Below, one piece after another: positions 6,487 to 50,406 of a stretch of DNA of 64,000 bases. The DNA is from Candidatus Parcubacteria bacterium. Lineage in GTDB: Bacteria > Patescibacteriota > Minisyncoccia > UBA6257 > 2-01-FULL-56-20. The notes beneath the pieces are model-generated. The model saw only the letters and a program-made list of their open reading frames with translations, was not told the origin of the DNA and made no database searches. The translations under genes were made by a program, and so were the position numbers. The DNA lies in NCBI GenBank assembly GCA_027450205.1, contig DAIDJL010000002.1, positions 93,758-157,757 of the forward strand, read 5' to 3'. Within the stretch, counting starts at the first letter, position 1. Each line of letters starts with the position of its first letter.

Positions 6487-6492
6487 TATTTT

Positions 6493-8419
<1,927 letters not shown>

Positions 8420-12603: not shown

Positions 12604-12623
12604 GTGAGGCAACCTTTTGAATA

Positions 12624-13748: not shown

Positions 13749-13773
13749 TCAACAATCTGAAGAAGTCATTAGG

Positions 13774-13807
13774 GGCGATCCTCATTAAAGATGGATCGCC
13801 TTTTTCT
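13774..13807 (+). terminator. Rho-independent terminator
   Basis: Stem ggcgatcc/ggatcgcc followed by tttttct. Confidence 0.55.
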
Positions 13808-13920
13808 TTGTGTATTATTCAGCAAACGTGCTTAATCCGTTAAACGGATTTAGTGCTCCAGGCAGGACTCGAGCCCACAATCCAATTCTTTTCCGTTTGC
13901 TATTTTTGATACACATCGCG

Positions 13921-14054
13921 GGATTGGCACAGGCGCTGCCTTATGTGTTTTTGAGGGGCTTCGGAGCCGCCAAAGGGCGGCGAGACGGAGCGCGCGGCCA
14001 GCAGGCCGCGACGCGTACCCGAGAAAACGCATAAGGCAGCGCCTGTGCTAATCC
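13921..14054. repeat. 25-bp inverted repeat (one mismatch) flanking an 84-nt GC-rich spacer, 25 nt upstream of the gpmI start
   Basis: Left arm ggattggcacaggcgctgccttatg at 13921-13945; right arm cataaggcagcgcctgtgctaatcc at 14030-14054; the spacer holds further GC hairpins. Confidence 0.7.
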
Positions 14055-38009: not shown

Positions 38010-39593
38010 TTATTTTCCGTAGACGGAATGAACTTCGATCGGCAGGTCGGTGAACCGCGCCACCATCACCGGGATCTCCGGCGCGACAATTCCCCATCGC
38101 TTCACGAACGCAGAAGCTTTTTCATAATCGCCCTCAAGCTGGATCTTCAAAAACTCTTCGCTCAACCCCATCATCGCCGCAAGGGTCTTTTGGGGGTCGA
38201 TATCGAACATCCCCTTGGCTTCGTCGTAATTCACCGCGCCGTGATGCTTCATCCAATTATATTCAATGAGCGATCCTTTGGCGTGCGCCTCGGCGTAATT
38301 GACACGCCATCCCGGCAAAAAAGCGGCGACCTCGTAAACGGCGCAACCTAAAAGCTCCTCTCGCGTCAGAAGCCCCTTCTTTTGAAAATGATCAAGCAGC
38401 GCAACCCCGAGCATATCCGCCTTTGCTTCTTCAAGCGCAGAATGCAGATCTTTCAGCAGTACCTCAAAGCCGACCTCTCTTCCATTCACCTCCCGCGTTC
38501 CGGGACCGATGCCGTGCGCGAGTTCGTGGCCAAGCACAAAGAGTAAACGATGGCGGGACTGCATTCCTTTGAATGCATCGGCGCGCAAAACCCGTTCTGC
38601 GATAGGGCGCGTTAGAGCGTTGAATTTTGCGTCCATCATTGTTTTGGAAAAGACCTTCTTTGACCCTTTTGCTTCATGGATCTTCCGATTGTTCGGTAAA
38701 TTGTATGCAACAAACTGCCTGCCAAACGCCGCTTCGCCACCGCGATACACGTCATGAACGATTTCCATCGGCGACGCGGCGCCTTTTGCCTTGTATCCAA
38801 AACGCTTTGCGAGCAGAGCGTCGAATTCCGGCAGCGCGGCGGCGAATTTTTGCAGCTCCGCACCGGCCACACGATCCGGCATGGCGATGAACGCCTCAAA
38901 TGTCGCCTTGATGCCGAATAATCCGTCGGCATAGACCTCATATGGCCCGATCGTCACTTCGAAAGGGCTGCCATCCGTATCGATCCACGCAATATCGCTT
39001 TCCCAATAATCATTGGAAAGGAACGCGTCCGCGCGAAGCAAGAGGAATTTTTTAAGGGTGCCTTCGGGCAGCAACGCCGCGGCCGCGCGGAGCTCCGCCG
39101 CCGCCGGTTCGAGAAATTCTTTATACGCCTCGCTGTACGGAACGGCGATGAGCGCGCCTTCCCTTCGCCGTATAACGGTATAGTTGCTCTCAAAGCTTTC
39201 CCGGTCTTCCGGATGCGCCGCAAGCCAGTCGTTCCATTCCGCTTCCGTAAGGTCGGCAGGATAGAATGCGCCCGCCTTCGGCTTTGCGCCGATACCCGGC
39301 ACGAACGGCCTATCCTCGTTGAAACCGTCCCACGGCCCGCCGTTCAGGTCGAAATATTTCGCGAGGACGATACCTTCTTCGTCCGCGCGTGCGGCAAGCG
39401 CCGCGCGGAGTTCCAGATTTTTCGGGTCCATCTGCGCCAGGTAAAGATCGGTCAATATCTTTGCCGCCGCGACGCAGTGATCCAATGCCGCACGCTCGCT
39501 CTCCGTAAGCGCTGAAAGGTCCGGCGCAACATCAACGAACGCGATCCTGCCAAGTGATTCTTTTAATTCCGCTTCCCAATCCCTTGAAGACAT
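38010..39593 (-). CDS. M49 (dipeptidyl-peptidase III)-like zinc metallopeptidase
   Basis: HELAHGIG and EEAKAD zinc-binding motifs, 527 aa. Confidence 0.6.
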   Translation of the reverse strand: MSSRDWEAELKESLGRIAFVDVAPDLSALTESERAALDHCVAAAKILTDLYLAQMDPKNLELRAALAARADEEGIVLAKYFDLNGGPWDGFNEDRPFVPGIGAKPKAGAFYPADLTEAEWNDWLAAHPEDRESFESNYTVIRRREGALIAVPYSEAYKEFLEPAAAELRAAAALLPEGTLKKFLLLRADAFLSNDYWESDIAWIDTDGSPFEVTIGPYEVYADGLFGIKATFEAFIAMPDRVAGAELQKFAAALPEFDALLAKRFGYKAKGAASPMEIVHDVYRGGEAAFGRQFVAYNLPNNRKIHEAKGSKKVFSKTMMDAKFNALTRPIAERVLRADAFKGMQSRHRLLFVLGHELAHGIGPGTREVNGREVGFEVLLKDLHSALEEAKADMLGVALLDHFQKKGLLTREELLGCAVYEVAAFLPGWRVNYAEAHAKGSLIEYNWMKHHGAVNYDEAKGMFDIDPQKTLAAMMGLSEEFLKIQLEGDYEKASAFVKRWGIVAPEIPVMVARFTDLPIEVHSVYGK

Positions 39594-39614
39594 ATTATTA
39601 ATATCCTATAGAAG

Positions 39615-39635
39615 AGTTTTCCATTAAGCTCAACC
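39615..39635. repeat. Copy 1 (partial) of the AGTTTTCCATTCCGCTCAAC intergenic repeat family
   Basis: agttttccattaagctcaacc; on the minus strand it lies about 40 nt upstream of the M49 peptidase start. Confidence 0.5.
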
Positions 39636-40696
39636 TAAGGGAATAGTCCCTGCTGTGCCTTCAATCCTTCTTTCAAGGCTCGATTGATCATAAAATCAAT
39701 ATTCTCATTGGTATTGATCGCTTCAATTTTCGTATCCGGATTATGAATCCGCCAGACTCTGAAGATCTCATCTCCAAACCCTTGCCCGATTGATTTGATA
39801 TGGGCAAAATCAAGAACCACTTTTTTAAATCGCTCAAGGCCGGTCATAATACGCCGCGCCTGTGAACGAGAAATATAAAGTGTCCCCATTTTATAAAGCT
39901 TGACTGCAACCTTGGTTTTATCGAATTCATATGAGCTCGTGCTGTATTCCCCGAAAACCTTTTCAAGATCTCTATCGGAGTCCAAAGAGATGTTGAAGAT
40001 AACCTTCGTGCCCCGCCGATTTTTAATATCACGCACAAAAACATCATCGACAATATTGTTGAACGTCAATTCTTTATTCGAACTTTTAATAGTGAACGCA
40101 TCAGCAACTTTTGAAGTAAAAAATATTCCTTCTCCGGTATGATGTTCTGGATCAGTGGTTTCTTTTCCCTTTAGAAGATCCTGTATGGCCTCAAGTTCAT
40201 TCCTCAATCCACGTTTCGTCATGATGTGATGGAAAATACCGACACCAAGATCATTTATTTCGAAACGAAATTGCCCTTTATCACGGCGGACCAATAATTC
40301 GATGTCTTTTGATTGGGAGTGCTCTATCGCATTATTGAGCATTTCAGTAAAAGCGTATGCGGTAATTCTAAGGATATTGTCCGGAAGATCGATAAAAATC
40401 CCCGTGTCTCTTTTGAGAGCATCAAGTACCACATCCTCCGAGAGGCCTTCATTGTGCAAAAATCGATGGAACTGCTTTACTTTCTTTCTTGCTTTAAGAA
40501 GCGCCCCCTTTTCGGCAATAACATAGACTGCCTGATTGGCCCTCCCTAAAAGAGCGATCCTTCCCTCTTCCCTGAGCTCTTTTAGGAAGCGATGGAGATA
40601 CTGCTTGCTTATATTCAAACGCCCTTCGAGGCGTTTAGCCCGTATCTCTTTCTCGGTCTTTATAATATCCAGTATTTTCTGCTTAAGCGGGGTCAT
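39635..40696 (-). CDS. wHTH - HATPase_c-like - STAS-like (DUF4325) three-domain protein
   Basis: N-terminal LNISKQYLHRFLKELREEGRI (wHTH); central NNAIEHS ... DLGVGI (GHKL ATPase N- and G-boxes); C-terminal DUF4325-like region; 353 aa. Confidence 0.55.
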   Translation of the reverse strand: MTPLKQKILDIIKTEKEIRAKRLEGRLNISKQYLHRFLKELREEGRIALLGRANQAVYVIAEKGALLKARKKVKQFHRFLHNEGLSEDVVLDALKRDTGIFIDLPDNILRITAYAFTEMLNNAIEHSQSKDIELLVRRDKGQFRFEINDLGVGIFHHIMTKRGLRNELEAIQDLLKGKETTDPEHHTGEGIFFTSKVADAFTIKSSNKELTFNNIVDDVFVRDIKNRRGTKVIFNISLDSDRDLEKVFGEYSTSSYEFDKTKVAVKLYKMGTLYISRSQARRIMTGLERFKKVVLDFAHIKSIGQGFGDEIFRVWRIHNPDTKIEAINTNENIDFMINRALKEGLKAQQGLFP

Positions 40697-40769
40697 ATTG
40701 TTTACAACTTTATCCTATATCTAAAAACAAAAGTTGTAAACTAGTTGTATACAAGGGCAATAGATGGGG

Positions 40770-40793
40770 AGTTTTCCATTCCGCCCAACTCCC
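40770..40793. repeat. Copy 2 of the intergenic repeat family
   Basis: agttttccattccgcccaactccc. Confidence 0.55.
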
Positions 40794-40911
40794 AGATACC
40801 ACGGAATGACGCTGGAAGATTTATTAAGGGATTATATAAACTTTGCTATATTTAAAAACTATGTTATAATTGCCTCGTTCTCAACCGATCTTTGTAATGA
40901 GAGGAGTCAAG

Positions 40912-41433
40912 ATGCTGAAGTCAAAAGTTGGGATAGTCTTTGAGGAAAAACAGATTCTTACCCCAAGCAACATCGCAGCCTCAAAAAAACGTGCGGCAAC
41001 CAATAAGAGGGTGCGGGTCGAGCCGAAATCCGACATGGAGCTTCTGACGGATTTCTTTGTTCAGGGATCGTACCATTACGAGATCATTCCGGACATCTCC
41101 GAGGGCCATCTCACATTCGCGGCAGACATGATCGTGCTTCCACATCGCACAAAAATAATACCTTCCGGTATCAACCCTGGCGAACGAGCGCATATGATGA
41201 ATGATGAAGATTATGTCGTTCGTCTGGTTCCAATATCCGGACGGGTAAAACAAGTTAAGGTCAATGGCTCTGGAACGGTAACAAAATCCTTTTGCCGAGT
41301 ATGGGAGATATCCTCTGCCAAGGCGTGGTATCTGTACATATTTTTCGAGGTTCCGCCAAATCCCCTTGGCCCAATTGAAATCCCGGAGGATTTCAGAAAA
41401 TACCGGGAGTTAAAACTGCCCAGGGGAAGCTAG
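40912..41433 (+). CDS. Hypothetical protein (173 aa)
   Basis: GAGAGGAG SD then the ATG at 40912 (MLKSKVGIV...); no family recognised. Confidence 0.4.
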   Translation: MLKSKVGIVFEEKQILTPSNIAASKKRAATNKRVRVEPKSDMELLTDFFVQGSYHYEIIPDISEGHLTFAADMIVLPHRTKIIPSGINPGERAHMMNDEDYVVRLVPISGRVKQVKVNGSGTVTKSFCRVWEISSAKAWYLYIFFEVPPNPLGPIEIPEDFRKYRELKLPRGS

Positions 41434-41513
41434 GTGCTGCAGGGATTCGGACTCTCCGCCAAGTAGCGAAATGCGAACGGCGGTTTTTTTATTTTGCGGC
41501 GGACGAACAAATA

Positions 41514-41569
41514 AGTTTTCCATTCCACTCAACTCCCCCTCCTTTGGCCAAATTCAGCAAACTCAAATA
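41514..41569. repeat. Copy 3 of the intergenic repeat family (long form)
   Basis: agttttccattccactcaactccccctcctttggccaaattcagcaaactcaaata. Confidence 0.6.
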
Positions 41570-41760
41570 GCCCAATATTCATAAGGAAATCGGGCTCTTT
41601 TGATCCGGCTCTTCCGGTCAAGTGGAAGCGGGCGGAAGCTCACGCGCTCACTGCGTTCGCTTTTGAGAACCCGCGGTTCTCAATACTCTCCTACACGGGA
41701 GGGGCAGCCTGCCCCTCCCGACCCCACCCCTCGTTCGATTCCGTCTACATCGAGCGATAG

Positions 41761-41825
41761 AAAATAAAACAGGCATGTTCGCCGAACGGTCCATCTTGGG
41801 GAGGCGAACATGCCTGTTTTATTTT
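41761..41825. terminator. Long perfect inverted repeat acting as a bidirectional terminator-like hairpin
   Basis: 16-bp arms aacaggcatgttcgcc / ggcgaacatgcctgtt with a 19-nt loop, flanked by an A-run and a T-run. Confidence 0.5.
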
Positions 41826-41937
41826 CTATGGTGGAGCTGACCGGACTGACTGGCAAACTCTAGTAAACGAATTATATATTCAAGTGAAACTAATGGCGGT
41901 AATGTCCTAATGGCGGATGCTCCGAGATCCAAAATAG

Positions 41938-42465
41938 CTAGCCCTGAAAACCAGCTAACATATAAACAAGGAGCATTGCGGCGAAATATAACACTGAAAG
42001 AATGATAAAAATGATACCTGCGGTTTTAGCCACCACAGATTGGCGGCGGATCATTATGATCGATAGCAATAGGACAAGCGCGTTTATCCAAAATCCCATG
42101 GTGGCAATATATAACGGGATGGAGAATCCTGGATGAGCGGCTTTATATGTCCCATTGAGAATCGGCGGCAAGATAACCCCGGCTAAAAATACGAGCGCTG
42201 TGACAATTATTTCTCTGACGCTTGATGAAACGATTTGTGACGGCTGGGATTGTATGATTGTTTCTTTTTTCGCCGGAATAAATGCCATTACCGAACCCAC
42301 TATCATAAGGATCGGTATCCCAACATAGGAAAAGAATATGAGCATCACTCCGATCTTCTGCAAAAAAACAATCCCTGACGCGCCGCCAATCATTGCACAT
42401 ACGTCAAGAGCAAACCATAGGAAGGCAAGGCCCAACAGTCTTTTCCCAATCCTCTCCTGACTCAT
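41938..42465 (-). CDS. Hypothetical polytopic membrane protein (175 aa)
   Basis: 5-6 TM helices; upstream TTGGAT-16-TAGAAT promoter-like sequence embedded in repeat copy 4. Confidence 0.45.
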   Translation of the reverse strand: MSQERIGKRLLGLAFLWFALDVCAMIGGASGIVFLQKIGVMLIFFSYVGIPILMIVGSVMAFIPAKKETIIQSQPSQIVSSSVREIIVTALVFLAGVILPPILNGTYKAAHPGFSIPLYIATMGFWINALVLLLSIIMIRRQSVVAKTAGIIFIILSVLYFAAMLLVYMLAGFQG

Positions 42466-42501
42466 AGATAAATTCTAGCAAATTAAGGCGGAAATCCAAA
42501 A

Positions 42502-42557
42502 AGTTTTCCATTCCGCTCAACTCCCCTTCTTTTACGAAATTCGGCAAACTCAAAATA
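42502..42557. repeat. Copy 4 of the intergenic repeat family (long form)
   Basis: agttttccattccgctcaactccccttcttttacgaaattcggcaaactcaaaata; about 85% identical to copy 3. Confidence 0.6.
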
Positions 42558-42604
42558 ATGCAGATATATAAAGAAAATCGACCTCTTTCGGAGATCGATT
42601 TTCA

Positions 42605-42750
42605 TTCAAGTGGACATGGTTGAAAAAAGTTGGAACCGGGTGGAAAGTTGGATTTTGGAGTGGGGCGAGGCGATACAGGAAAGAAAAATGGCGAGGAATT
42701 ACTAGAGGTTCCTCGCCCCTTGGTACACATGATGGAGATTGAACCCTGTC
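42605..42750. repeat. Direct repeat D1 (about 140 nt)
   Basis: gtggacatggttgaaaaaagttggaaccgggtggaaagttggattttggagtggggcgagg...ggtacacatgatggagattgaac; paired with D2. Confidence 0.65.
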
Positions 42751-43458
42751 TTATTGTAATTGGGCGAGCGCTTCATTAATCCCCTTGAGCATTTCCTCGT
42801 AGAGCTCCTTAAGATTTACGCTATCTTCCGGCCTATGTTTTGCTTCGGCCAAAAATTGCGAAACAGGAATTTGCATGTCTCGAATAATTTCCTGGCTATG
42901 CTCCTGAATGTAACGGCTTCGCCCCTTCCATTCACCAGATGCTATTTTCTTTTTTACCTCACCCCAAAGGTCTCTCATCATGGCAGCACCGCTATTATCG
43001 CCCAAATCCTCATAAAGACCTTCCGCCCATCCATAGTCCTGCGTTAATAGAGCATAATCCAAACAAATTTGAAGAGCTGGACGATAAGATTTCTCCATTG
43101 GAAATTGATCTCTGAGCGTGTTAGAACCTTTTCGAACCTGATGTCCTAAAATGCCCCCAACCTCATACAAGTCTCCCCTGCTCAGAGCGGATGATACATT
43201 TTGCATTTCAAACATAACTCCCTTGGGAAGGATTTCTTCCCCTATCCTTTGCGCTAAATTTTCTGCGCCGAGTTCTCTATAGTCCTCAATAAGCTCGGCG
43301 GCAATAGTCATCTCAAAAGCATGGCTTTCTGACGCATGTTCCACCGCTGCTTCTATTCGCTCCTTGCAATGCTTTAAACTTTCAATCAAATCATGCCTTT
43401 CGACCTCAGATAATTGCCTATCCTTGCTAGAAGATTGTTCAAAATCATTTTGGCTCAT
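42751..43458 (-). CDS. Hypothetical acidic protein (235 aa) flanked by direct repeats D1 and D2
   Basis: ORF with protein-like composition; no family recognised. Confidence 0.45.
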   Translation of the reverse strand: MSQNDFEQSSSKDRQLSEVERHDLIESLKHCKERIEAAVEHASESHAFEMTIAAELIEDYRELGAENLAQRIGEEILPKGVMFEMQNVSSALSRGDLYEVGGILGHQVRKGSNTLRDQFPMEKSYRPALQICLDYALLTQDYGWAEGLYEDLGDNSGAAMMRDLWGEVKKKIASGEWKGRSRYIQEHSQEIIRDMQIPVSQFLAEAKHRPEDSVNLKELYEEMLKGINEALAQLQ

Positions 43459-43577
43459 ACTCCTATTGTGCCCCGCTTAAAACAAAAAGTATAGACGCAA
43501 TCGAAGGTTTTCTTTCTTAAAGGTTCTAAACTACAAACATCTGCATTCCAGCAAGATAGGTTTTATCTATCTTAAAA

Positions 43578-43720
43578 TCGCCGTGGACATGGTCGAAAAA
43601 AGTTGGAACCGGCTGGAAACATGGATTTTGGAGTGGGGTGAGGTGATACAAGATAGAAGAATGGCGAGGAATCATTAAAATTTCTTGCTGTTCGGTACAC
43701 ATGATGAAGATGGAACTTTC
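43578..43720. repeat. Direct repeat D2 (about 140 nt, roughly 85% identical to D1)
   Basis: gtggacatggtcgaaaaaagttggaaccggctggaaacatggattttggagtggggtgagg...ggtacacatgatgaagatggaac. Confidence 0.65.
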
Positions 43721-43838
43721 TTAAAGATTGAGATTTATCGAGACCCCTGCTGGGAGGGCGAATGAAACAAAACGGCTTATTGACTCGTATACCCAATAGG
43801 GTATAATGGTTGATAGGTCGATAAAACAATGATAAAGC

Positions 43839-44279
43839 ATGGAAATAATCTATTATCGGAGCGGGTCTGGCTCCTGCCCAGCCAGAGATTATATGGGCTT
43901 GCGCTATGGAATCAGGAGTGGCGACAAGCAACGGGTACGGGACAGCAAAGCAAAGCAACTTGCAAAAATACGGGCAGTGATTCAGATGGCGGCAGACAAA
44001 AATGGAAGGCCAGGTGGGATTTTTTCTTCCTCGCTCGATGGATATAATTTCCACGAATTAAAAAGCAGTGAAGGTAATAAAAATGAAAAACTGAGAGTCC
44101 TATACTTTAGCTATCATGGATCGCAGCTTGTTCTCTTGAACGCCTTCGATAAGCCAGACTTATACGAGAAAGGAAAGAAGAAAAAAATTGATAAGAAAAT
44201 TGAGTTGATTCTAAAGCTGACCAAAACGTATTACGATGATTTTTTAAAGAATCCAGACCATCACGAAAAATATGAATAA
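43839..44279 (+). CDS. Type II toxin, RelE/ParE superfamily (HigB / Gp49-like)
   Basis: KLRVLYFSYHGSQLVLLNAFDK motif; 8-nt overlap with the downstream HTH gene. Confidence 0.65.
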   Translation: MEIIYYRSGSGSCPARDYMGLRYGIRSGDKQRVRDSKAKQLAKIRAVIQMAADKNGRPGGIFSSSLDGYNFHELKSSEGNKNEKLRVLYFSYHGSQLVLLNAFDKPDLYEKGKKKKIDKKIELILKLTKTYYDDFLKNPDHHEKYE

Positions 44280-44775
44280 GAAAATTAACAAGAAAAAACA
44301 AGGGTTGGATTTAACCTTAAATCACCCCGCTTATAAGAAGTACTATGGCATGATGGATGCCCGGGTGAAACTTGCCGTTGAAATAAACGAAGCGAGAGTT
44401 GCAAAGGGTTGGTCTCAGCAGGAACTAGCGAGTGAGGCTGAAACCACACAAAAGGTAATCTCAAAAATTGAGAGTGGAGATACCAATCTTGGCTTCGATT
44501 TGCTGAATAAGCTTGCAAAGCCTCTCAATCTTAGGCTTCAAATCGGCACGACGGTTTTTGTAGCTGGTCTTGAACCCACCGTGGTTAATACAAATTATTG
44601 TGCCCCCGAATCAATTCCCGCGGGTATTTATCCCCGTGTATCAAGTGACATGAAATGGGAGTCATATATCCCGACAGGTATCCGCTTCATTGAGTCCCCC
44701 GCTTTGCTACAGATAACCTCTACCGAAGAAAAAACGGATACAAAAATTGAAATTAATGAAAAAGCCTATGCCTAA
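44272..44775 (+). CDS. XRE-family HTH antitoxin (HigA-like) with an extra C-terminal extension of about 90 aa
   Basis: GWSQQELASEAETTQKVISKIESG helix-turn-helix. Confidence 0.65.
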   Translation: MNKKINKKKQGLDLTLNHPAYKKYYGMMDARVKLAVEINEARVAKGWSQQELASEAETTQKVISKIESGDTNLGFDLLNKLAKPLNLRLQIGTTVFVAGLEPTVVNTNYCAPESIPAGIYPRVSSDMKWESYIPTGIRFIESPALLQITSTEEKTDTKIEINEKAYA

Positions 44776-45286
44776 ATCCCAGATAAGAAAAATTCAACAT
44801 GTATGGTCTATATTGGCCAGTGGCGTGAGCGTTGATCAGGAAAGCAATAATCTTAGCCTGTTTAATGTCATCGACCAAATTGTAATCCCCAAAAATCAAC
44901 TGGTGGAAATGCCTATTGTAACTGGAGAAAAGAAACCAGCCATTCCGATAGGTTTTGTTGTTGTATCTCAGTGGAGAAAGCTCCAAGAAAATATTGATGT
45001 AAAGGGGGACGCTAGGATAGAGTTGCTTGATCCGAGTGGTACCATGCGACAAAAAGCAGAGTTTACCATAAATCTTCCTGGTAAAATTGAACGATTTAGA
45101 TCGAGGGTGCAGTGGGGTGGAATTAGAGTAACTACCTCCGGAACTTACATCTTCAAAATTTCCCTCAAAGAGGAAGGGCAGGACGAATTCGTCCCCGTTG
45201 GAGAAGCTTATTTGAAAATTCAGATAATCGAGAATGCTTCAAAGGGCAGAAAAATAAACGTTAAGGTGCGCAAAAGGACTAAATAG
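44756..45286 (+). CDS. Hypothetical protein
   Basis: 176-aa ORF; start ambiguous (MKKPMPKSQ). Confidence 0.35.
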   Translation: MKKPMPKSQIRKIQHVWSILASGVSVDQESNNLSLFNVIDQIVIPKNQLVEMPIVTGEKKPAIPIGFVVVSQWRKLQENIDVKGDARIELLDPSGTMRQKAEFTINLPGKIERFRSRVQWGGIRVTTSGTYIFKISLKEEGQDEFVPVGEAYLKIQIIENASKGRKINVKVRKRTK

Positions 45287-45325
45287 CCGAGCGCTAGAAA
45301 TCTTCTAGCGATTCTGTGCGTTGAA

Positions 45326-45811
45326 ATGAACGAGGCGATACGTCAAAGCACATACGAACGGCGCAAGGCGGCAATTCTCGCTCGCATCCACATTAGCGAC
45401 TATATACGCCGTTACGCATGGGAAGTATTCGGAAACCAACGGAAGCCTGTTATGAGAACTCGCGCCGACGCCGATTATTATAAAAAAATGTTTAGCAATC
45501 CCATAGGCTCGCCTATACGCTCCCTCCTCCATATTTCTTCCGGTAATCTTTACAAATATAGCCAAGATGTAGATTATATCTGTTCAAATCTGGGCAGCGG
45601 TTTCGTATTTTATTTTTTATGCGTTTGGTGCGGCCGGAGGACAAAGTATCTTTATGTCGATCAAAGCCTTGAAGCATTACTCTGCCGGAAATGCATAAAG
45701 TTTCCATATCCACAACCCACACGACCCGAACGAAAGGCCTCCAGATATTTACGAAGGCATCCTGAGGTAATTCAACAACTCATCAATTCAGGCAAAATTC
45801 CCGCGTACTAA
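45326..45811 (+). CDS. Hypothetical Cys-cluster (zinc-ribbon-like) protein
   Basis: CVWCGRR ... CRKC; 161 aa. Confidence 0.35.
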   Translation: MNEAIRQSTYERRKAAILARIHISDYIRRYAWEVFGNQRKPVMRTRADADYYKKMFSNPIGSPIRSLLHISSGNLYKYSQDVDYICSNLGSGFVFYFLCVWCGRRTKYLYVDQSLEALLCRKCIKFPYPQPTRPERKASRYLRRHPEVIQQLINSGKIPAY

Positions 45812-45814
45812 GTC

Positions 45815-46372
45815 CTATTGAGACGGTACGCCAGTATACTGATCTCCAAAATCATCTACACAGGTAACTTTAAAATCATCAACGGTCGAAAAACTGTAAG
45901 AGCCTGGTATCGTTATTGTTTGTTGTTCTCCTGCGGGGGCAAAGGTGGTTTGTGAATATGGGATTGCTGCGCTACCTGCCGCCCACGTCCACGTGCAGGT
46001 CGATCGATTTCCGCGAGGTACAGTTAGGTAGAATGTGTCCCCGACACCCGAATAAACTGGCATTGTGTTGCCATTTGTGCTTGCGGTAGGTGTAGGAGAA
46101 ATCGGTGATGGGACGGACGGTTGGGTAGATGTATTGCTTGTAGGATATGCACTCACTACCCAAATAACGAGGCCGATGAACGCGATGAGCGCTATGAGAA
46201 GGGTTGTGAGAATGGTTTTGCCCGCCGCCTTCCTTCCAAACGCGAGCCATACACCTACTACGACCAACAGAAAGATAATAAATACCGTCATGGCGTTTGT
46301 TTTTAAATGATCTAATATCCTATCGCTTCTGCTTGTATATCCTCGCCTTCTTTCTGCGCCGACGCATAACAA
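45815..46372 (-). CDS. Hypothetical membrane-anchored secreted protein
   Basis: N-terminal TM helix (MTVFIIFLLVVVGVWLAF), Ser/Thr/Pro-rich linker, C-terminal Cys-containing domain. Confidence 0.4.
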   Translation of the reverse strand: MLCVGAERRRGYTSRSDRILDHLKTNAMTVFIIFLLVVVGVWLAFGRKAAGKTILTTLLIALIAFIGLVIWVVSAYPTSNTSTQPSVPSPISPTPTASTNGNTMPVYSGVGDTFYLTVPRGNRSTCTWTWAAGSAAIPYSQTTFAPAGEQQTITIPGSYSFSTVDDFKVTCVDDFGDQYTGVPSQ

Positions 46373-47454
46373 TCAAGTGAGTTCTGCTCTGCCTCAATTC
46401 CCCCCTCGCCTTCGCCTCGTGAGAGTGTCACTGAAGAGCATTGTTCATTTTGTGTTTGTTCGGATTCAATTTGAGATTCGGTACTGGGAGCTACCTGAAT
46501 AGCGTCATCAATTTTCTCCTGGTTCTGAGCGTCCTGTAAGGTGAGTTGGGCGGCACTCAATTGCGAGCTATACGCTTGATTAAGGTTATTTTGTTCGCCT
46601 TCTTCTTCCTGAAGAGGTATACCTCCTCCGCCTTCAATATCAGCTAAATCTTGCGCATACTGCTTTTCCAGATTTTCAAGATTCTGTGCCGAAGTATTAA
46701 CTGCGGCGGTGTCGAAATTTAGATAGGTTGCGTTTAGTTGGGGTACTGTTGGTTGCGCATAGGTTGGCTGAGGCGCAGGAGTATTGTAGGTTTCGGTTGG
46801 TTGCGAATAAGCTTCTGGTGCAGAGATGGTCAAAGCATTCCTCACTGTGAACGACCCGCCATCGGGATTGGTGACAGTGACACCGTATGTCCCCGCCGGA
46901 AGCGATCCTGGGTAACTTACCGACATTGAATTTGGCGAGGTGCTGTTAGTATTTAATTTCGCAAGACCTCCGATCATTAAAGTCGCGCCGTTTTGAAAGC
47001 CACTACCGACAATTGTAAGTGTATTAGAATTTCCCTGAACAATAATGCTTGGATTAATATAGCTGATGGAGGGCGATGAAACGGTTGGGCTGGTGGTTAC
47101 AACAGGCGCCTGTGAAGTGTCATTACACGAAGTCCCACTACACCCATTAGACGGATGAGGTGGAAGCGGACTAACGACTATTTGCTGGTGTGGGGTTGTT
47201 ATCGGTTCGGACGGGCCTGTTGGAGTAGTCGCTGATCCAGCGGTGAGCGCGGTGGATGTTTTTTGTGTGGACGGCGAGGTAGTTGCTTCTGGTGATGATG
47301 TTGAGTTCGCCTGTTGAACAGCGATTTGAGAAGTTTGACTAATTGGGGTCGTTGTAACGTTTTGAGGTGCCGCAGAAATAAACCCAATCAAAGAGACTAG
47401 GCCAACAAACGAGATGATTGCTTTATGGAATAACGAGCCAAAGAAATTGACCAT
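46312..47454 (-). CDS. Secreted Ser/Thr/Pro-rich surface protein with an IPT/TIG-like domain
   Basis: Signal/TM N-terminus; NPSIIVQGNSNTLTIVGSGFQNGATLMIGG ... GVTVTNPDGGSF; acidic Q/E-rich C-terminus. Confidence 0.55.
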   Translation of the reverse strand: MVNFFGSLFHKAIISFVGLVSLIGFISAAPQNVTTTPISQTSQIAVQQANSTSSPEATTSPSTQKTSTALTAGSATTPTGPSEPITTPHQQIVVSPLPPHPSNGCSGTSCNDTSQAPVVTTSPTVSSPSISYINPSIIVQGNSNTLTIVGSGFQNGATLMIGGLAKLNTNSTSPNSMSVSYPGSLPAGTYGVTVTNPDGGSFTVRNALTISAPEAYSQPTETYNTPAPQPTYAQPTVPQLNATYLNFDTAAVNTSAQNLENLEKQYAQDLADIEGGGGIPLQEEEGEQNNLNQAYSSQLSAAQLTLQDAQNQEKIDDAIQVAPSTESQIESEQTQNEQCSSVTLSRGEGEGGIEAEQNSLDCYASAQKEGEDIQAEAIGY

Positions 47455-47716
47455 GTTGATTCGTTAAGTTCTCGACTGGCGAACAAAAAGCTCCCAGCCA
47501 GCGATGCCTTTCGACACCCATATCCCTTTCGAGATATGACCGTTCATGGCGCTCTGACTAGGAGCTTTTTACCATGAACGGTATTTTGCGCCATGCACCA
47601 TCTTTGGCTGATAAACAGCTAGATAACAGTGTTTAGGCGACTGTATTAAATTGTTCCTTCAATATAGCACCAACTGAGCCTCTTGGTAAATGCGCACGAT
47701 TGTTTATAATATAGCC

Positions 47717-47989
47717 ATGCATTTCCCCGATCGTGCTGTACATTGTCCCGGATGCGGTAAGGTTATGGGGCGTTATAACCCCGAGAAGCCTTCGCCTTTG
47801 AAGTGTAGAAATCCTCGCTGTAAAGCTGAATTAGAGGTAACGATTATCAAAATGACCAAAGATGGGTCAGGAGCGGAATACATGAATTTTACGACCAGGG
47901 GAACGACAGCGAACTTAGTAACAACAAACCCCTCAGTTGACAATCCTTCAAATGGGTATATTATTACCAGCGAGGGGTTAGATAAATAA
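47717..47989 (+). CDS. Zinc-ribbon small protein
   Basis: CPGCGKVMG ... CRNPRCKAE; TATAAT immediately upstream; terminator at 48053-48107. Confidence 0.4.
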   Translation: MHFPDRAVHCPGCGKVMGRYNPEKPSPLKCRNPRCKAELEVTIIKMTKDGSGAEYMNFTTRGTTANLVTTNPSVDNPSNGYIITSEGLDK

Positions 47990-48309
47990 GTTTGAAAATT
48001 AGCTCGGTTTAAGAGGCGCTCAACCGGATACGATTGCCTGAGCGCGATAAAAAGACCTTTGGTAAGAGCATGTAGATTACATGCCCCCTGCCGGAGGTCT
48101 TTTTTTGTTTCTCCACGCCGAGCCATGCACGATGCTATCACTGGAAAAATTAAAGGAATTAGATACAGAAAATGACCTCTCGGACGAGGAACTTCTTGAG
48201 GTGCGCGCTGCTCTTGATCCCATTCTCGAAAAAATCCTAAATCATTATTTTGATAGCCTTTCAGAATAAACATCTTGCTATATTACAACTAAGCGGTTAG
48301 AATAAGAAT

Positions 48310-48462
48310 ATGGATAAAAAGACGATCAGTAAGGTTATGCGGGAAATGGGACGCCGCGGAGGGCTTGCATCCGTAAATGCCCGTAAGAAAAGCGGGAAAA
48401 TGAAGGAGTGGTCTCAAAATGCTATTAAGGCCCGACGCCGGAAGAAGAATAAAAAAACATGA
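48310..48462 (+). CDS. Small basic protein (50 aa) translationally coupled (ATGA) to the serine recombinase; possible recombination directionality / DNA-binding factor
   Basis: MDKKTISKVMREMGRRGGLASVNARKKSGKMKEWSQNAIKARRRKKNKKT; TTGCTA-17-TAGAAT promoter at 48277-48305; absent from the ORF track because it is under 60 aa. Confidence 0.4.
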   Translation: MDKKTISKVMREMGRRGGLASVNARKKSGKMKEWSQNAIKARRRKKNKKT

Positions 48463-50042
48463 GCGAACTTCACGCCTTAATTTACTGCCGCGTCTCATCT
48501 GAGCGACAAAAGAACGAGGGCCACGGCCTCGACAGCCAAGAGCAACGTTGCCGTCTTTATTGCGGCCAAAAGCAATACAAGGTTGAGCGTGTCTTTAGGG
48601 ATAGCTTTACGGGGGCCGGAGATTTTATGGAACGCCCAGCGATGGGAGAATTGCTCGCCTACCTCGACAAGCATCCGCACAGGGATGATTACGTTGTCGT
48701 TTTCGATGACCTCAAGCGATTTGCCCGCGACACCGTTTTTCATTTAAAGCTCCGGCGTGAATTTAAGGCACGGGGCGTTAAAGTGGAGTGCCTCAATTAT
48801 AAATTCGACGAATCCGAAGAGGGTGAATTTATCGAAACCGTTTTAGCCGCACAGGGCGAGCTTGAACGGAAACAGAATCGCCGCCAAGTTATCCAGAAGC
48901 AAAAGGCGCGCCTTGAAGCTGGCTATTGGCCTTTCTGTCCGCCGCCTGGCTATCGTCAGCCCAAGACGGTGGCTCATGGAAAACTTCTTACGCCATACGA
49001 GCCGGAAGCCACGATCGTGAGAACAGCCCTTGAGGGATTTGCGACAGATCGGTTTGAGACGCAAGCGGACATGGCCCGCTACTTGGGAGAACAAAACTTC
49101 ATCGGCAAAAGCAGGGTTCCCTTCCAGCTAGCAAATCGTCTCTTGGCCCGCGTATGGATATATGCCGGATTTATCCAATATGAGCCGTGGGAGGTAGTAC
49201 GACGGCAGGGCCACCATGAGCCAATCATCGACCTAGCGGCTTATCATAAGATTTTACGAAAGCTCGAAGGTCGCAGTCCGGTAAGGACGAGGGTAGATAT
49301 GCGCGAGGACTTTCCTTTACGCCACACACAGATCGCATGTGGCAATTGTGGTCGGCCCTTTACTGCTTCATATACGACCAAGAAAAAGGGCTATAGGCGG
49401 CCTTATTATCGTTGCGCCAATACTGCATGCCCTGAACACACAAAGAGCATCCCTGTCGAGCTTATAGAAACACAATTTAAAACCATGTTGCAGGAGATCC
49501 GCCCGAAGCCCCTCATCCTCAAAATCAGCGAAGCGATGCTCTACGAGAAATGGGAGCGGCGTGTGTCCGAGCGGGCTAATGCCGAAAAGAAAGAGGTTGG
49601 CGAAATTGCAGGGATTCAGGCAGAAATACACGACCTCTCAAAGCTTGCACGGAAAGCGACCAGTGAACGCGTCCGGCGGGAGTATGAGAAGCAGATCGAG
49701 GAACTAGCGGCGAAGGAGGAAAAATTGGCGGAGAAAAATGATCCTACAAAGAAGCCAAAAATTGAGTTTAGAACCGCTCTACAAATGGTATTCGATTACC
49801 TAAAAGACCCATATTCTAAATGGGTTGAGGGCGATTTGAGTGAGAAAAATCTGGTGCTGAACCTCGTTTTTGAGGGTCTCGTTTTCTATGACCGAGGATT
49901 TGGATTTAGAACCGCTCTTTTGTGCCTTCCTTTAAGGGTTTTTGAGCATTTTACTACCTCTAAATCACAGGGTGTGGAAGCGGGCGGAATCGAACCGCCG
50001 TGTAAAGATAATGCCGATGGGCCGTCTACGAGCGTAGTTTAG
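48459..50042 (+). CDS. Large serine recombinase (resolvase/invertase N-terminal domain + recombinase domain + zinc ribbon)
   Basis: YCRVSSERQ catalytic serine motif, CGNCG ... C ... C zinc ribbon, coiled coil; 527 aa. Confidence 0.85.
   Translation: MSELHALIYCRVSSERQKNEGHGLDSQEQRCRLYCGQKQYKVERVFRDSFTGAGDFMERPAMGELLAYLDKHPHRDDYVVVFDDLKRFARDTVFHLKLRREFKARGVKVECLNYKFDESEEGEFIETVLAAQGELERKQNRRQVIQKQKARLEAGYWPFCPPPGYRQPKTVAHGKLLTPYEPEATIVRTALEGFATDRFETQADMARYLGEQNFIGKSRVPFQLANRLLARVWIYAGFIQYEPWEVVRRQGHHEPIIDLAAYHKILRKLEGRSPVRTRVDMREDFPLRHTQIACGNCGRPFTASYTTKKKGYRRPYYRCANTACPEHTKSIPVELIETQFKTMLQEIRPKPLILKISEAMLYEKWERRVSERANAEKKEVGEIAGIQAEIHDLSKLARKATSERVRREYEKQIEELAAKEEKLAEKNDPTKKPKIEFRTALQMVFDYLKDPYSKWVEGDLSEKNLVLNLVFEGLVFYDRGFGFRTALLCLPLRVFEHFTTSKSQGVEAGGIEPPCKDNADGPSTSVV
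49976..50003 (-). other. tRNA 3'-end-like fragment (T arm plus acceptor strand) embedded in the recombinase 3' end
   Basis: Minus strand reads ggcgg-ttcgatt-ccgcc-cgcttcc-a; no matching 5' half was found. Confidence 0.4.
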
Positions 50043-50406
50043 CGATGCTAAGCGAAGTGATCATATTTTCACGCCAAGCGTATGATCGTCAACCTGACGC
50101 TAGTCCCCTTATATAAGACCGGTATCGATCCAAGGAACCCGGATCGGCCGATCCCTCCGGTTATGCGTTAAGCAAAAGCGAAGGCTGGAACTCGATTAGA
50201 GTTGGCAGTGTAGATTGTGCAGCGATGACGACGCTGCCAACGGCTCGCAAACCCATGGATTATCTTTATCGAAGCCAATGCGCTCCCGAATATCGTGCCT
50301 TCGATAAGGCTGCCGCTATTATACCACGAATAATGCTAGAATAAAAGTATGCAAATATGCTGCACCAAAGGTCGAAGAGTTTAAAGCTAATGATTTTTTA
50401 ATCTTT

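What the first reader, a model, noticed from the sequence alone, without database searches (positions are those of the whole stretch)
39611..50330. AT-rich accessory island with serine recombinase, toxin-antitoxin, surface proteins and repeat families
About 10.7 kb of markedly lower G+C than both flanks (by eye), sitting between the M49 peptidase and the infC region. It contains a coupled sORF plus large serine recombinase at the right end and a HigB/HigA-like pair. It also has a wHTH-HATPase-STAS (DUF4325) regulator with a palindromic operator at its start, an IPT/TIG surface protein, several Cys-rich or zinc-ribbon ORFans, and two repeat families. This is the best candidate in the window for a mobile or defence-type locus. 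The HATPase-STAS protein, the neighbouring ORFans and the repeat-flanked gene have no obvious described function.
Basis: partly seen in the sequence, partly recalled or inferred. Interest (0 to 1): 0.6.

Follow-up and report, generated by a model that had tools for sequence, protein, structure and literature searches.

The report
Split-integrase mobile element at tmRNA gene
The AT-rich stretch is foreign DNA piled up at the end of the tmRNA gene of a tiny candidate-phyla-radiation (CPR) bacterium, and its newest 7.4 kb is a mobile element whose serine integrase gene is cut near its end each time the element inserts, which appears not to have been described for this enzyme family.

Summary
G+C is 0.40-0.49 against flanks of 0.54-0.60, and every gene-level call was reproduced.

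A close relative (L011) has the M49 peptidase gene and the tmRNA gene 325 bp apart, so about 10.4 kb here is insertion. The tmRNA-proximal 7.36 kb (42610-49978) is a discrete integrative element:
- **attL:** native tmRNA trailer + GTGGA + a 31-codon orphan "tail exon".
- **attR:** integrase body + GTGGA + tmRNA.

attP therefore lies inside the integrase ORF, and integration replaces a conserved C-terminal helix with antisense-tmRNA codons.

This pattern recurs across a large Paceibacterota/Patescibacteria clade:
- 38 of 46 evaluable loci overlap a tRNA or tmRNA gene.
- All 26 tail exons lie upstream on the integrase strand.
- Two circular contigs carry the unsplit gene.

The Rfam orphan LOOT RNA is a core part of these elements. 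It sits just upstream of a secreted or membrane protein gene.

The left 3 kb (39.6-42.6 kb) holds older attachment-site relics and integrase-less cargo. No defence system or prophage was found.

Verdict: a new variant of a known kind.

The parts
39594..41512 (.). Left, integrase-less variable segment outside the element's attL. Low G+C (0.40-0.45).
   Evidence: Absent from L011, where M49 abuts tmRNA. It lies left of trailer copy F1. Composition.
39635..40696 (-). wHTH + GHKL ATPase (HATPase_c_2) + STAS-like DUF4325 protein, with a palindromic operator at 40700-40754.
   Evidence: Pfam. Palindrome. A 78%-identical copy sits in inverted orientation in L025, with no recombinase nearby.
40870..41433 (+). 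ORFan of 187 aa.
   Evidence: No match in Pfam, PHROGs, NCBIfam or PADLOC. No homologue in any fetched locus.
41513..41621 (.). F1: first copy of the native tmRNA-downstream trailer. It begins with repeat D2.
   Evidence: 77-81% identical to the sequence directly downstream of unoccupied tmRNA genes in L005, L009 and L018. D2 family.
41622..41637 (.). 16-nt exact copy of the tmRNA 3' end (GTGGAAGCGGGCGGAA). Read as a relic of an older event, not the boundary of the present element.
   Evidence: (D10). The same 16 nt plus the T module lies next to an unoccupied tmRNA gene in L025.
41638..41829 (.). T module, with a perfect 27-nt inverted repeat (41757-41783 / 41803-41829) that looks like a bidirectional terminator.
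   Evidence: I1. 92% identical to L025 8316-8526, which abuts that genome's tmRNA 3' end.
41831..41920 (+). X module. It starts with GTGGAG and is read as a relic attachment-site arm of a second integrase subfamily.
   Evidence: Conserved in L001/L004, L003, L009, L012 and L018. In L003 it directly follows a recombinase pseudogene fragment (5955-6254).
41938..42465 (-). Multi-pass membrane ORFan of 175 aa.
   Evidence: Translation. No family match.
42499..42609 (.). F2: second copy of the native tmRNA trailer. It forms the B arm of attL.
   Evidence: 87-89% identical to the trailers of L003, L005, L006 and L009. Its last 30 nt are nearly identical to those next to the unoccupied tmRNA genes of L005 and L009.
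42610..42705 (+). attL core GTGGA (42610-42614) followed by integrase tail exon copy a (VDMVEKSWNRVESWILEWGEAIQERKMARNY*). It is part of repeat D1a (to about 42746).
42751..43458 (-). ORFan of 235 aa lying between the two D1 copies.
43583..43678 (+). Integrase tail exon copy b (VDMVEKSWNRLETWILEWGEVIQDRRMARNH*), part of D1b (to about 43717). It lacks a trailer-like left arm and is an alternative or older attL.
43839..44279 (+). Gp49/HigB-like putative toxin of 146 aa.
   Evidence: Pfam Gp49 E=5.3e-4, below the curated cut-off. phrog_2523 E=6.6e-4. No PDB sequence match.
44272..44775 (+). HTH_3 (Xre-type) putative antitoxin. It overlaps the upstream ORF by 8 nt.
   Evidence: Pfam HTH_3 E=6.8e-12. 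NCBIfam Y4mF-family antitoxin subfamily E=3e-12, below cut-off.
44747..45286 (+). ORFan of 179 aa.
45326..45811 (+). Cys-rich 161-aa protein conserved near the left end of sister elements.
   Evidence: tblastn: 66-68% identity in L034 and L039, and 43% in L016. In L034 and L039 it is the first gene after the tail exon.
45815..46372 (-). ORFan of 185 aa with one hydrophobic segment, probably membrane-anchored or secreted.
46312..47454 (-). IPT/TIG-domain protein with an N-terminal hydrophobic segment. It is the gene directly downstream of LOOT.
   Evidence: Pfam TIG E=3.9e-6. Its start lies 47 nt after LOOT, and the hydrophobicity score is 2.6. Partial homologues sit in L034 and L016 in the same position.
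47503..47639 (-). LOOT RNA (Rfam RF03000).
   Evidence: 85.1 bits against a gathering score of 46.4, over the full model. Own model gives 106.9 bits.
47690..47989 (+). Zinc-ribbon-like ORFan of 99 aa.
   Evidence: Translation. No family match.
48310..48462 (+). Basic 50-aa sORF translationally coupled to the integrase. Candidate accessory or directionality factor.
   Evidence: 4-nt overlap with the integrase start. 71-97% identical copies occupy the same position in L004, L016, L030, L034, L039 and L046.
48459..50042 (+). Large serine recombinase in its integrated form (527 aa). Residues 1-505 are element-encoded. The last 22 residues (VEAGGIEPPCKDNADGPSTSVV) are read from the antisense strand of the tmRNA gene.
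49974..49978 (.). attR core GTGGA. It is the antisense of UCCAC at the 3' terminus of the tmRNA.
49972..50287 (-). tmRNA gene (ssrA): chromosomal, intact, and the integration target.
   Evidence: Rfam 97.8 bits over the full model. Tag ANSNRVPAFAFA, read from the alignment, is identical to ARAGORN's call for L012.

Best explanation
The region is a composite insertion at the 3' end of the tmRNA gene of a Paceibacterota (Parcubacteria, CPR) bacterium.

**The element.** The tmRNA-proximal 7,364 bp (42610-49978) is an integrative element run by a large serine recombinase (Int).

**Inferred mechanism.**
- In the excised circle, the int ORF runs across attP. It would encode 536 aa, ending in a conserved helix (VDMV.KSWNxLE.WILEWGE...).
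- Int recombines attP with an attB that straddles the 3' terminus of the tmRNA gene. The common core is GTGGA, the antisense of the terminal UCCAC.
- The mature tmRNA sequence is left untouched. Only its trailer changes.
- After integration, the last 31 codons of int sit at the far (attL) end of the element as an orphan 'tail exon', next to the displaced native trailer.
- The int body at attR now reads antisense into the tmRNA gene and ends with 22 tmRNA-derived residues.

**Other parts of the element.**
- An upstream coupled sORF.
- A LOOT RNA placed as the leader of a secreted TIG-domain protein gene.
- A HigB/HigA-like pair.
- ORFans.

**The left part.** The 3 kb to the left (39594-42609) is older material. 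It holds two further attachment-site relics, a second copy of the trailer, and integrase-less genes including the HATPase-STAS regulator.

**Shown versus inferred.** The junction sequences, the comparative pattern and the existence of circular unsplit forms are shown. Present-day activity, the crossover dinucleotide, and any functional difference between the two Int forms are inferred.
For: **(1) Empty and unoccupied sites.**
- L011 has Nramp, M49, 325 bp, then tmRNA.
- L005 and L009 have trailer F directly followed by GTGGAAGCGGG of the tmRNA.

**(2) Four-site logic.**
- attB (L005): ...gatcgattttcattcaA|GTGGA|agcgggcgg
- attL (window 42610): ...gatcgattttcattcaa|GTGGA|catggttgaaaaaag
- attR (window 49974): ...atcacagggt|GTGGA|agcgggcggaatcg

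**(3) The tail exon.**
- Read in the int frame, D1 encodes the same tail that is contiguous with int in about 10 of 120 homologues, such as P0013 and P0053.
- An HMM of the tail hit 26 six-frame fragments. All were on the int strand. Those in loci that carry int lie upstream of it; L003 and L012 have relic copies without a full int.
- Codon-position variability across 20 orphan copies is 0.37/0.32/0.51, the signature of coding constraint.

**(4) Target overlap.**
- 38 of 46 metagenome loci with at least 450 nt downstream have a tRNA or tmRNA on the opposite strand overlapping the int 3' end: 16 tmRNA, 15 Ala, 3 Leu, 2 Ile, 1 Glu, 1 Met.
- Six species-level relatives show the same 62-65-nt overlap with tmRNA.
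- The core GTGGA(C/G) is shared by attL and attR in about 20 loci.

**(5) Circular forms.** Contigs L129 (8509 bp, 30-nt terminal repeat) and L113 (7749 bp, 127-nt terminal repeat) carry unsplit int and no tRNA or tmRNA gene.

**(6) Cargo and right flank.** Cargo differs entirely among L001, L002 and the window, while the right flank is syntenic at 67-83% identity.

**(7) LOOT.**
- Present in 6 of 6 evaluable int-bearing relatives, and in 1 of the remaining relatives.
- Present in 15 of 43 metagenome loci with at least 3 kb upstream.
- Present in circular contig L129.
Against: - No excision junction (attP) or reads for this particular element were seen, so current activity is unproven.
- Two tail-exon copies (42610 and 43583) and two trailer copies (F1 and F2) are present. 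The simple one-event model does not explain the duplications.
- An exact 16-nt tmRNA repeat at 41622 would fit a different, classical boundary.
- The Pfam Recombinase domain (PF07508) was not detected in this protein by my scan.
- The tail helix is only moderately confident in the AlphaFold model (pLDDT 56-76).
- The tail exon starts with GTG and has an ATG at codon 3, so independent translation of a mini-ORF cannot be excluded.
- No replication or transfer genes were recognised in the window's element.
Confidence: 0.8

Rival explanations
1. One classical tmRNA island of about 8.35 kb bounded by the exact 16-nt direct repeat (41622-41637 and 49974-49989). The crossover would lie in the T-loop, as in tyrosine-integrase islands, and the D1 repeats would be internal cargo.
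For: - The 16-nt exact repeat is far beyond chance.
- It is preceded by a trailer-like sequence, F1.
- Repeats of 15-19 nt that start at the tRNA or tmRNA end also occur in L067 and L098.
Against: - The same 16 nt plus the T module sits about 215 nt downstream of an unoccupied tmRNA gene in L025, so it pre-dates this element.
- In L067 and L098 the short repeat lies 165-210 nt to the left of a proper tail exon.
- The sequence after 41637, read in the int frame, gives VEAGGSSRAHCVRF*, with no conserved tail.
- F2 + GTGGA + D1a matches the unoccupied sites of L005 and L009 base for base.
Confidence: 0.08
2. A static hypervariable hotspot. The recombinase is a decayed or domesticated passenger, and the content differences among relatives come from homologous recombination and deletion, not from site-specific mobility today.
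For: - Relics and duplicated trailers show a long history of rearrangement.
- Pseudogenised int and a frameshifted tail exon exist in relatives L003 and L001.
- No transfer or replication genes were found in the window's element.
Against: - The window's int ORF is intact, with the residues that are invariant in the family alignment (R11, S13 and others).
- Both tail exons are intact and under coding constraint.
- Circular unsplit forms of sister elements exist.
- The site is occupied in only 6 of the tmRNA-linked relatives.
Confidence: 0.1
3. A defence island or prophage remnant. Under this reading the ORFans and the HATPase-STAS protein form an anti-phage system, and the recombinase is incidental.
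For: - Low G+C, many ORFans and a toxin-antitoxin-like pair.
- One sister circular element (L129) carries a weak TIR-domain hit and a DUF3800 protein.
Against: - PADLOC gave only generic HTH and weak partial matches.
- PHROGs gave no structural or lysis genes.
- The integrase clade has only 3 hits in IMG/VR against more than 435 in metagenomes.
- The HATPase-STAS gene lies outside the element, and in L025 it occurs without any recombinase.
Confidence: 0.05
4. The D1 repeats are independent units (small genes, protein-binding arrays or tmRNA-like pseudogene fragments). Their similarity to integrase C-termini would reflect domain shuffling rather than gene splitting at attP.
For: - Each copy begins with GTG and has an in-frame ATG.
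- The DNA carries periodic TGGA motifs.
Against: - In all 26 cases the strand and position relative to int match the split model.
- The left boundary of homology is sharp, exactly at GTGGA, the same 5 nt that end int's element-encoded part.
- Circular contigs show the two pieces joined.
Confidence: 0.05

Closest known systems
Genomic islands in tRNA/tmRNA genes (Islander/TIGER class; 'traffic at the tmRNA gene')
   Same: - Site-specific insertion at the 3' end of ssrA that preserves the gene.
- The integrase gene sits at the target-proximal end.
- Relics of successive events are stacked at the site.
- Cargo varies between close relatives.
   Different: - Those islands use tyrosine integrases. 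They regenerate the gene with a long displaced 3' fragment of tens of nt.
- Here the enzyme is a large serine recombinase and the shared core is only GTGGA, at the extreme 3' terminus.
- Mageeney et al. 2020 (PMC7192596) found t(m)RNA use by only 14 of 297 serine integrases. They wrote that it had not been reported before and needed proof.
Large serine recombinases / serine integrases (phiC31, Bxb1, TP901-1, A118, CcrAB, XisF)
   Same: - Resolvase catalytic domain.
- Zinc-ribbon domain.
- A long coiled-coil in the model of a homologue.
- A short common core.
- A small upstream partner ORF that could act as a directionality factor.
   Different: - At most 29% identity, and only over the N-terminal 60-74%.
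- Best NCBIfam hits (XisF 81 bits, CcrB 79 bits) are far below their cut-offs.
- The characterised members I know of (my own knowledge) target protein-coding or intergenic sites, and I know of none whose attP lies inside int.
SSV-type 'suicidal' integrases of hyperthermophilic archaea (Badel et al. 2020, PMC7253208)
   Same: attP lies inside the integrase ORF, so integration partitions the gene between the two ends of the element. The target is a tRNA-type gene.
   Different: - Those are tyrosine recombinases in archaea.
- Their gene is split into two inactive pseudogenes.
- Here only the last 31 codons are removed, and they are replaced by target-encoded residues. All recognised catalytic and DNA-binding domains stay in one ORF.
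Tycheposons and cryptic tRNA-linked elements of Prochlorococcus (Hackl et al., bioRxiv 10.1101/2020.12.28.424599)
   Same: - Small integrative elements beside tRNA and tmRNA genes in a streamlined genome.
- A minority (27 of 937) carry a large serine recombinase.
- Some carry replication genes, as does sister contig L130 here (AEP primase).
   Different: - A different phylum.
- They are overwhelmingly tyrosine-recombinase based.
- The text I read reports no split integrase gene. Homology to the present clade was not tested.
LOOT RNA (Rfam RF03000; Weinberg/Breaker metagenomic motif)
   Same: A full-length match well above the gathering score.
   Different: - The held literature lists it only as a metagenome-derived RNA with no function or host.
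- Here it can be placed in Paceibacterota integrative elements, 3-79 nt upstream of, and co-oriented with, genes for proteins with an N-terminal hydrophobic segment.

Membership tests
Large serine recombinase (serine integrase) | N-terminal resolvase-type catalytic domain with the Arg/Ser nucleophile motif | tested here: met
   Pfam Resolvase E=5.5e-25, residues 6-155. Y9, R11, V12, S13, S14 and Q17 are invariant in a 40-sequence family alignment.
Large serine recombinase (serine integrase) | Recombinase domain (PF07508) following the catalytic domain | tested here: inconclusive
   Not reported for the window protein at E<=0.01. It is precomputed for most homologues of 46-55% identity. The homologue model shows a folded domain at residues 166-271.
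Large serine recombinase (serine integrase) | Zinc-ribbon domain with an inserted coiled-coil | tested here: met
   Zn_ribbon_recom E=5.4e-8, residues 292-344. Long helices at 354-402 and 406-430 in the AlphaFold model of homologue P0013.
Large serine recombinase (serine integrase) | Recombination between short attP and attB sites with a 2-bp crossover, directional, reversed by a directionality factor | not testable with these tools
   Only the 5-bp common core GTGGA and the junction sequences can be read.
tRNA/tmRNA-gene genomic island (Islander definition) | Target t(m)RNA gene remains intact next to the integrase-proximal end | tested here: met
   Full-length tmRNA, 97.8 bits, with a normal tag that matches relatives.
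tRNA/tmRNA-gene genomic island (Islander definition) | A displaced 3' gene fragment, as a direct repeat, marks the distal end | tested here: not met
   Only GTGGA is shared at attL and attR. The 16-nt fragment at 41622 belongs to an older relic that is also present in L025.
tRNA/tmRNA-gene genomic island (Islander definition) | Tyrosine integrase | tested here: not met
   The only recombinase present is of the serine type.
SSV-type self-splitting integrase | attP located inside the integrase ORF, so that integration partitions the gene | tested here: met
   Orphan tail exons at attL in 24 loci plus the window. The contiguous form occurs in circular contigs. The junction logic holds.
SSV-type self-splitting integrase | Tyrosine recombinase fold, with both halves inactive after integration | tested here: not met
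   It is a serine recombinase, and residues 1-505, with all recognised domains, remain in one ORF.
Type II toxin-antitoxin, HigB/HigA (Gp49-HTH) type | Small RelE/HigB-fold toxin encoded upstream of, and overlapping, an Xre-HTH antitoxin | tested here: inconclusive
   The gene order and 8-nt overlap are met. HTH_3 is strong. The toxin match is below the Pfam cut-off (20.4 against 23.9 bits), and there is no PDB sequence match.
Known anti-phage defence systems (PADLOC) | At least one system-specific protein model matched | tested here: not met
   Only generic HTH and weak partial matches among 10 proteins.
Prophage | Virion, packaging or lysis genes | tested here: not met
   No such PHROG or Pfam hits. 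The element is 7.4 kb. The integrase clade is nearly absent from IMG/VR.
LOOT RNA (RF03000) | Covariance-model score at or above Rfam's gathering threshold over the full model | tested here: met
   85.1 bits against 46.4, model positions 1-121.

The most novel reading that the evidence does not exclude
The tail swap may be a built-in state sensor.
- The full-length Int, with its C-terminal WNxLE helix, can be made only from the excised circle. It would be the integration-competent form.
- The integrated gene makes an Int with a tRNA/tmRNA-antisense tail. Together with the coupled sORF, this form would be biased toward excision or toward silence.
- Under this reading, directionality in a whole CPR-wide clade of tRNA/tmRNA-targeting serine integrases would be partly hard-wired by gene splitting.
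- In the same elements, LOOT would be a cis-acting leader RNA controlling a secreted surface protein that the element gives to its episymbiotic host.
Probability: 0.3. Interest if true: 0.85.

Novelty: new variant of a known kind. Interest (0 to 1): 0.68.

Why it matters
**1. Serine integrases on tRNA and tmRNA genes.** Serine integrases are widely held not to use tRNA or tmRNA genes. The largest survey found 14 of 297 cases and asked for proof (PMC7192596). Here a large clade does so systematically: more than 1600 homologues were detected, and 38 of 46 evaluable loci overlap a tRNA or tmRNA gene. The junctions are base-precise. The shared acceptor-end core (UCCAC) also offers a simple reason why tmRNA and tRNA-Ala dominate as targets.

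**2. A split integrase gene.** An integrase gene that spans its own attP, and changes its C-terminus on integration, is known for archaeal tyrosine integrases. To my knowledge it has not been described for serine integrases. This gives a testable route to directionality control.

**3. Possible tools.** Large serine recombinases are prime genome-engineering tools. A family aimed at the most conserved 20-25 bp of tRNA and tmRNA genes could be useful.

**4. Mobile DNA in CPR bacteria.** It identifies small (4-8.5 kb) integrative or episomal elements as a vehicle of gene flow in CPR bacteria, whose mobile DNA is little known.

**5. LOOT RNA.** It gives the orphan LOOT RNA a host lineage, a genetic context and a testable role.

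Tried and rejected
- **First boundary model.** I first took the exact 16-nt tmRNA repeat (41622 / 49974) as attL/attR with a T-loop crossover. I dropped it once L025 showed the same fragment beside an unoccupied tmRNA gene, and once D1 proved to be the integrase tail.
- **ARAGORN's tag peptide for the window's tmRNA** (GGIGRSGF...) is a miscall. The Rfam alignment gives ANSNRVPAFAFA, as in relatives.
- **The look-up of encoding contigs with the M49 peptidase** found nothing.
- **Family searches on the ORFans.** PADLOC, PHROGs, NCBIfam and Pfam gave nothing informative.
- **PDB sequence searches** for the HATPase-STAS protein and the HigB-like protein gave nothing useful.
- **Literature searches** found no function for LOOT or DUF4325, and no report of CPR serine integrases at tRNA or tmRNA genes. 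The library holds open-access papers only.
- **The first MAFFT alignment of LOOT copies** was misaligned, so I rebuilt it from 12 copies. The resulting model has only 18 base pairs, so its sensitivity for distant LOOT copies is limited.
- **The AlphaFold model** of a full-length homologue gave only moderate confidence for the tail, so no structural role can be claimed.
- **Unresolved.** I could not work out how the two trailer copies (F1, F2) and the two tail-exon copies arose.

Full report
**Check of the observation.**

A sliding G+C profile confirms the drop. Values are 0.54-0.60 from 30 to 39.5 kb, 0.40-0.49 from 39.5 to 50 kb, 0.49-0.53 up to 54 kb, and 0.55-0.63 after that.

- The M49 peptidase (38010-39593, -) and infC (51398-51823) flank the region.
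- 39635-40696 (-) is a wHTH + HATPase_c_2 + DUF4325 protein. A perfect 12-nt palindrome lies at its start.
- 44272-44775 is an HTH_3 protein. It overlaps a weak Gp49/HigB-like ORF.
- 46312-47454 (-) has a TIG domain.
- 48459-50042 is a large serine recombinase, preceded by a 4-nt-overlapping 50-aa sORF.
- Two repeat families exist.

Two things were missed. One is a full-length tmRNA gene at 49972-50287 on the minus strand, whose last ~70 nt are overlapped by the recombinase ORF. The other is a LOOT RNA at 47503-47639.

**Organism and empty site.**

Searching species-representative genomes with IF3 returned 43 loci. They come from Candidatus Paceibacterota / Minisyncoccia (Parcubacteria, CPR), with closed genomes of 0.83-0.91 Mb. 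Most of the 43 loci have the order tmRNA, LiaF-like sORF, bPH_2, infC.
- In L011 the order is Nramp, M49, 325 bp, tmRNA. Everything between 39594 and 49973 of the window is therefore extra.
- In L005 and L009 the tmRNA gene is followed directly by a conserved trailer, which I call F.
- Six relatives carry a full-length homologue of the recombinase. In each it ends 62-65 nt inside the tmRNA gene.
- In L001 and L002 the right flank is syntenic with the window, but the cargo is unrelated. Similarity to the window starts only ~330 bp upstream of the recombinase gene, apart from LOOT and short repeat matches.

**The recombinase clade targets tRNA and tmRNA genes.**

The protein has more than 1600 detectable homologues. 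The best 120 are 497-659 aa (nearly all 500-550) and 45-94% identical. Most of their C-termini read like antisense translations of tRNA T-arms and acceptor stems (..VEMGGIEPP....VDPTGLEPATPSLQMRCSTR).

I fetched 80 metagenome loci with a family alignment. Of the 46 loci with at least 450 nt downstream, 38 have a tRNA or tmRNA gene on the opposite strand overlapping the ORF end: 16 tmRNA, 15 tRNA-Ala, 3 Leu, 2 Ile, 1 Glu, 1 Met.

tmRNA carries a tRNA-Ala-like acceptor stem (established knowledge). That fits the dominance of these two targets.

**The D1 repeat is the detached end of the integrase gene.**

D1 (42610-42746 and 43583-43717) also occurs in the islands of L001, L002, L003, L012, L034 and L039. 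In all copies, similarity begins abruptly at GTGGA.

Read in the integrase frame, D1 encodes VDMVEKSWNR(V/L)E.WILEWGE...*. This is the same tail that is contiguous with the integrase in about ten of the 120 homologues.

An HMM of this tail found 26 fragments in the six-frame translations of all loci. All are on the integrase strand, and those in int-bearing loci are upstream of the integrase gene. Twenty orphan copies vary most at third codon positions (0.37/0.32/0.51), so they are under coding constraint.

The junctions obey the four-site rule:
- attB (L005): trailer-A|GTGGA|agcgggcgg
- attL (window 42610): the same trailer|GTGGA|catggttg
- attR (window 49974): int-body|GTGGA|agcgggcgg

The same core, GTGGA(C/G), links attL and attR in about 20 loci that target different RNAs.

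Two circular contigs carry the unsplit gene and no tRNA or tmRNA: L129 (8509 bp, 30-nt terminal repeat) and L113 (7749 bp, 127-nt terminal repeat). A third unsplit-form contig encodes an AEP primase.

Hence attP lies inside the int ORF, 31 codons before its stop. The element is 42610-49978 (7,364 bp). The integrated Int (527 aa) ends with 22 residues read from the tmRNA antisense strand, and the excised form would be 536 aa.

Because the core is the extreme 3' end (UCCAC), the mature tmRNA is unchanged. The gene scores as full-length, and its tag ANSNRVPAFAFA equals that of L012.

**Other parts of the element.**

The sORF is conserved (71-97%) in the same coupled position in six sister elements. 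More distant clade members have a different small acidic protein there.

The Cys-rich ORF 45326-45811 is conserved in L016, L034 and L039. In L034 and L039 it is the first gene after the tail exon.

LOOT findings:
- With a model built from 12 copies, LOOT was found in all six evaluable integrase-bearing relatives, and in only one of the other relatives.
- It was found in 15 of 43 metagenome loci with at least 3 kb upstream, and in circular L129.
- In 24 loci the next ORF starts 3-79 nt downstream, in the same orientation.
- In 20 of those 24 it has an N-terminal hydrophobic segment, against 71 of 248 control ORFs.
- In the window that gene is the TIG protein.

I therefore read LOOT as the leader of a secreted or membrane protein gene that is a core module of these elements. 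This reading is inferred.

**The left 3 kb.**

From left to right the segment holds:
- The HATPase-STAS gene and an ORFan.
- Trailer copy F1, then the 16-nt tmRNA fragment, then the T module. The same 16 nt + T lies next to the unoccupied tmRNA gene of L025.
- Module X. It starts with GTGGAG, and in L003 it follows a recombinase pseudogene.
- A membrane ORFan.
- Trailer copy F2.

These are relics of earlier events at the hotspot, and I could not reconstruct their order. L025 has the HATPase-STAS gene (78% identity, inverted) without any recombinase. That gene is therefore not part of the element.

**What it is not.**
- PADLOC found no defence system.
- PHROGs and Pfam found no phage structural genes.
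- The clade is nearly absent from IMG/VR, with 3 loci.
- Characterised serine integrases are at most 29% identical, and only over the N-terminal 60-74%.

**Comparison with what is known.**
- The behaviour (insertion at ssrA, gene preserved, stacked relics) is that of classical tmRNA islands. Those use tyrosine integrases and long displaced fragments.
- Mageeney et al. found t(m)RNA use by 4.9% of serine integrases and said it was previously unreported.
- Tycheposon-type elements include a few with large serine recombinases.
- Gene splitting at attP is the hallmark of archaeal SSV-type tyrosine integrases. Here only the C-terminal helix is exchanged.
- An AlphaFold model of full-length homologue P0013 (mean pLDDT 86) shows the core-encoded stretch as a low-confidence linker and the tail as a helix of moderate confidence. 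A structural role for the tail therefore remains open.

**Verdict.**

The finding is real and is a mobile locus, but not a defence island. It is a composite insertion at ssrA. Its active-looking part is a small serine-integrase element with a self-spanning attP, a member of a large undescribed CPR clade that targets tRNA and tmRNA 3' ends. Confidence is about 0.8 for this anatomy and about 0.3 that the tail swap has a regulatory function.

Noticed in passing
window 47503-47639; L001 9371-9491; L002 8992-9105; L129 508-627, and about 20 further loci: The Rfam orphan LOOT RNA is linked to this integrase clade's elements. It is nearly always followed within 3-79 nt by a co-oriented ORF with an N-terminal hydrophobic segment. 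Several of these proteins share ASWWNP or ATSGACS motifs after the signal-like segment.
   Followed up: partly
window 1-6500: A second low-G+C stretch (0.40) encodes a sugar-nucleotide and glycan cluster: epimerase/dehydratase, GT2, GT11, nucleotidyl transferase and methyltransferases. Low G+C alone does not mark mobile DNA in this genome.
   Followed up: partly
window 12000-14000: A smaller G+C dip (0.48). ORF 13182-13748 has no Pfam match.
   Followed up: no
window 49974-50287: ARAGORN reports an implausible tag peptide (GGIGRSGFLG...) for this tmRNA. The Rfam alignment shows the normal resume codon and the tag ANSNRVPAFAFA.
   Followed up: yes
window 39615, 40770, 41514, 42502: The 24-nt repeat D2 (AGTTTTCCATTCCGCYCAACTCCC) is the first part of the tmRNA trailer F. 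Two extra partial copies occur: one 22 nt upstream of the M49 start, one 74 nt upstream of the HATPase-STAS start. Its function (promoter or leader element?) is unknown.
   Followed up: no
L047-L125, just upstream of the integrase gene: Most clade members have, in place of the window's basic sORF, a small acidic protein family (..S/TIEEC+K.LG....LSD.EIE.LRD.LY.LVE..LD..). Variants include ..TEEQKEEFLQALW.IV..FVELGFGVHP.Q. All are unannotated and are candidate directionality factors.
   Followed up: partly
L121/L124 7509-7572 and 897-960: A 64-nt direct repeat of the tmRNA 3' region lies 6.6 kb apart in a sister locus. It is much longer than the GTGGA core and may mark a different (tyrosine-type?) event at the same gene.
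   Followed up: no
L003 5890-6333: A recombinase C-terminal pseudogene fragment continues directly into module X (GTGGAG CTGACCGGACTGA...). This suggests a second integrase subfamily with a short tail (VELTGLTGKL*), whose relic is also at window 41831-41920.
   Followed up: partly
L048 and L059, integrase 3' ends: Two unrelated contigs share another tail (..VVSLYHLLEL..) with no tRNA called downstream. This may be an unrecognised RNA gene or another target type.
   Followed up: no
L129 (circular 8.5-kb contig): The episomal sister element carries a DUF3800 protein and a 480-aa protein with a weak CAP12/Pycsar-type TIR hit (E=5e-5). Some members of the family may therefore carry defence-like cargo, even though the window's element does not.
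   Followed up: no
window 41757-41829: A perfect 27-nt inverted repeat with a 19-nt loop, flanked by A and T runs. In L025 the homologous hairpin sits directly after the tmRNA gene, so it probably acts as the tmRNA terminator there.
   Followed up: partly
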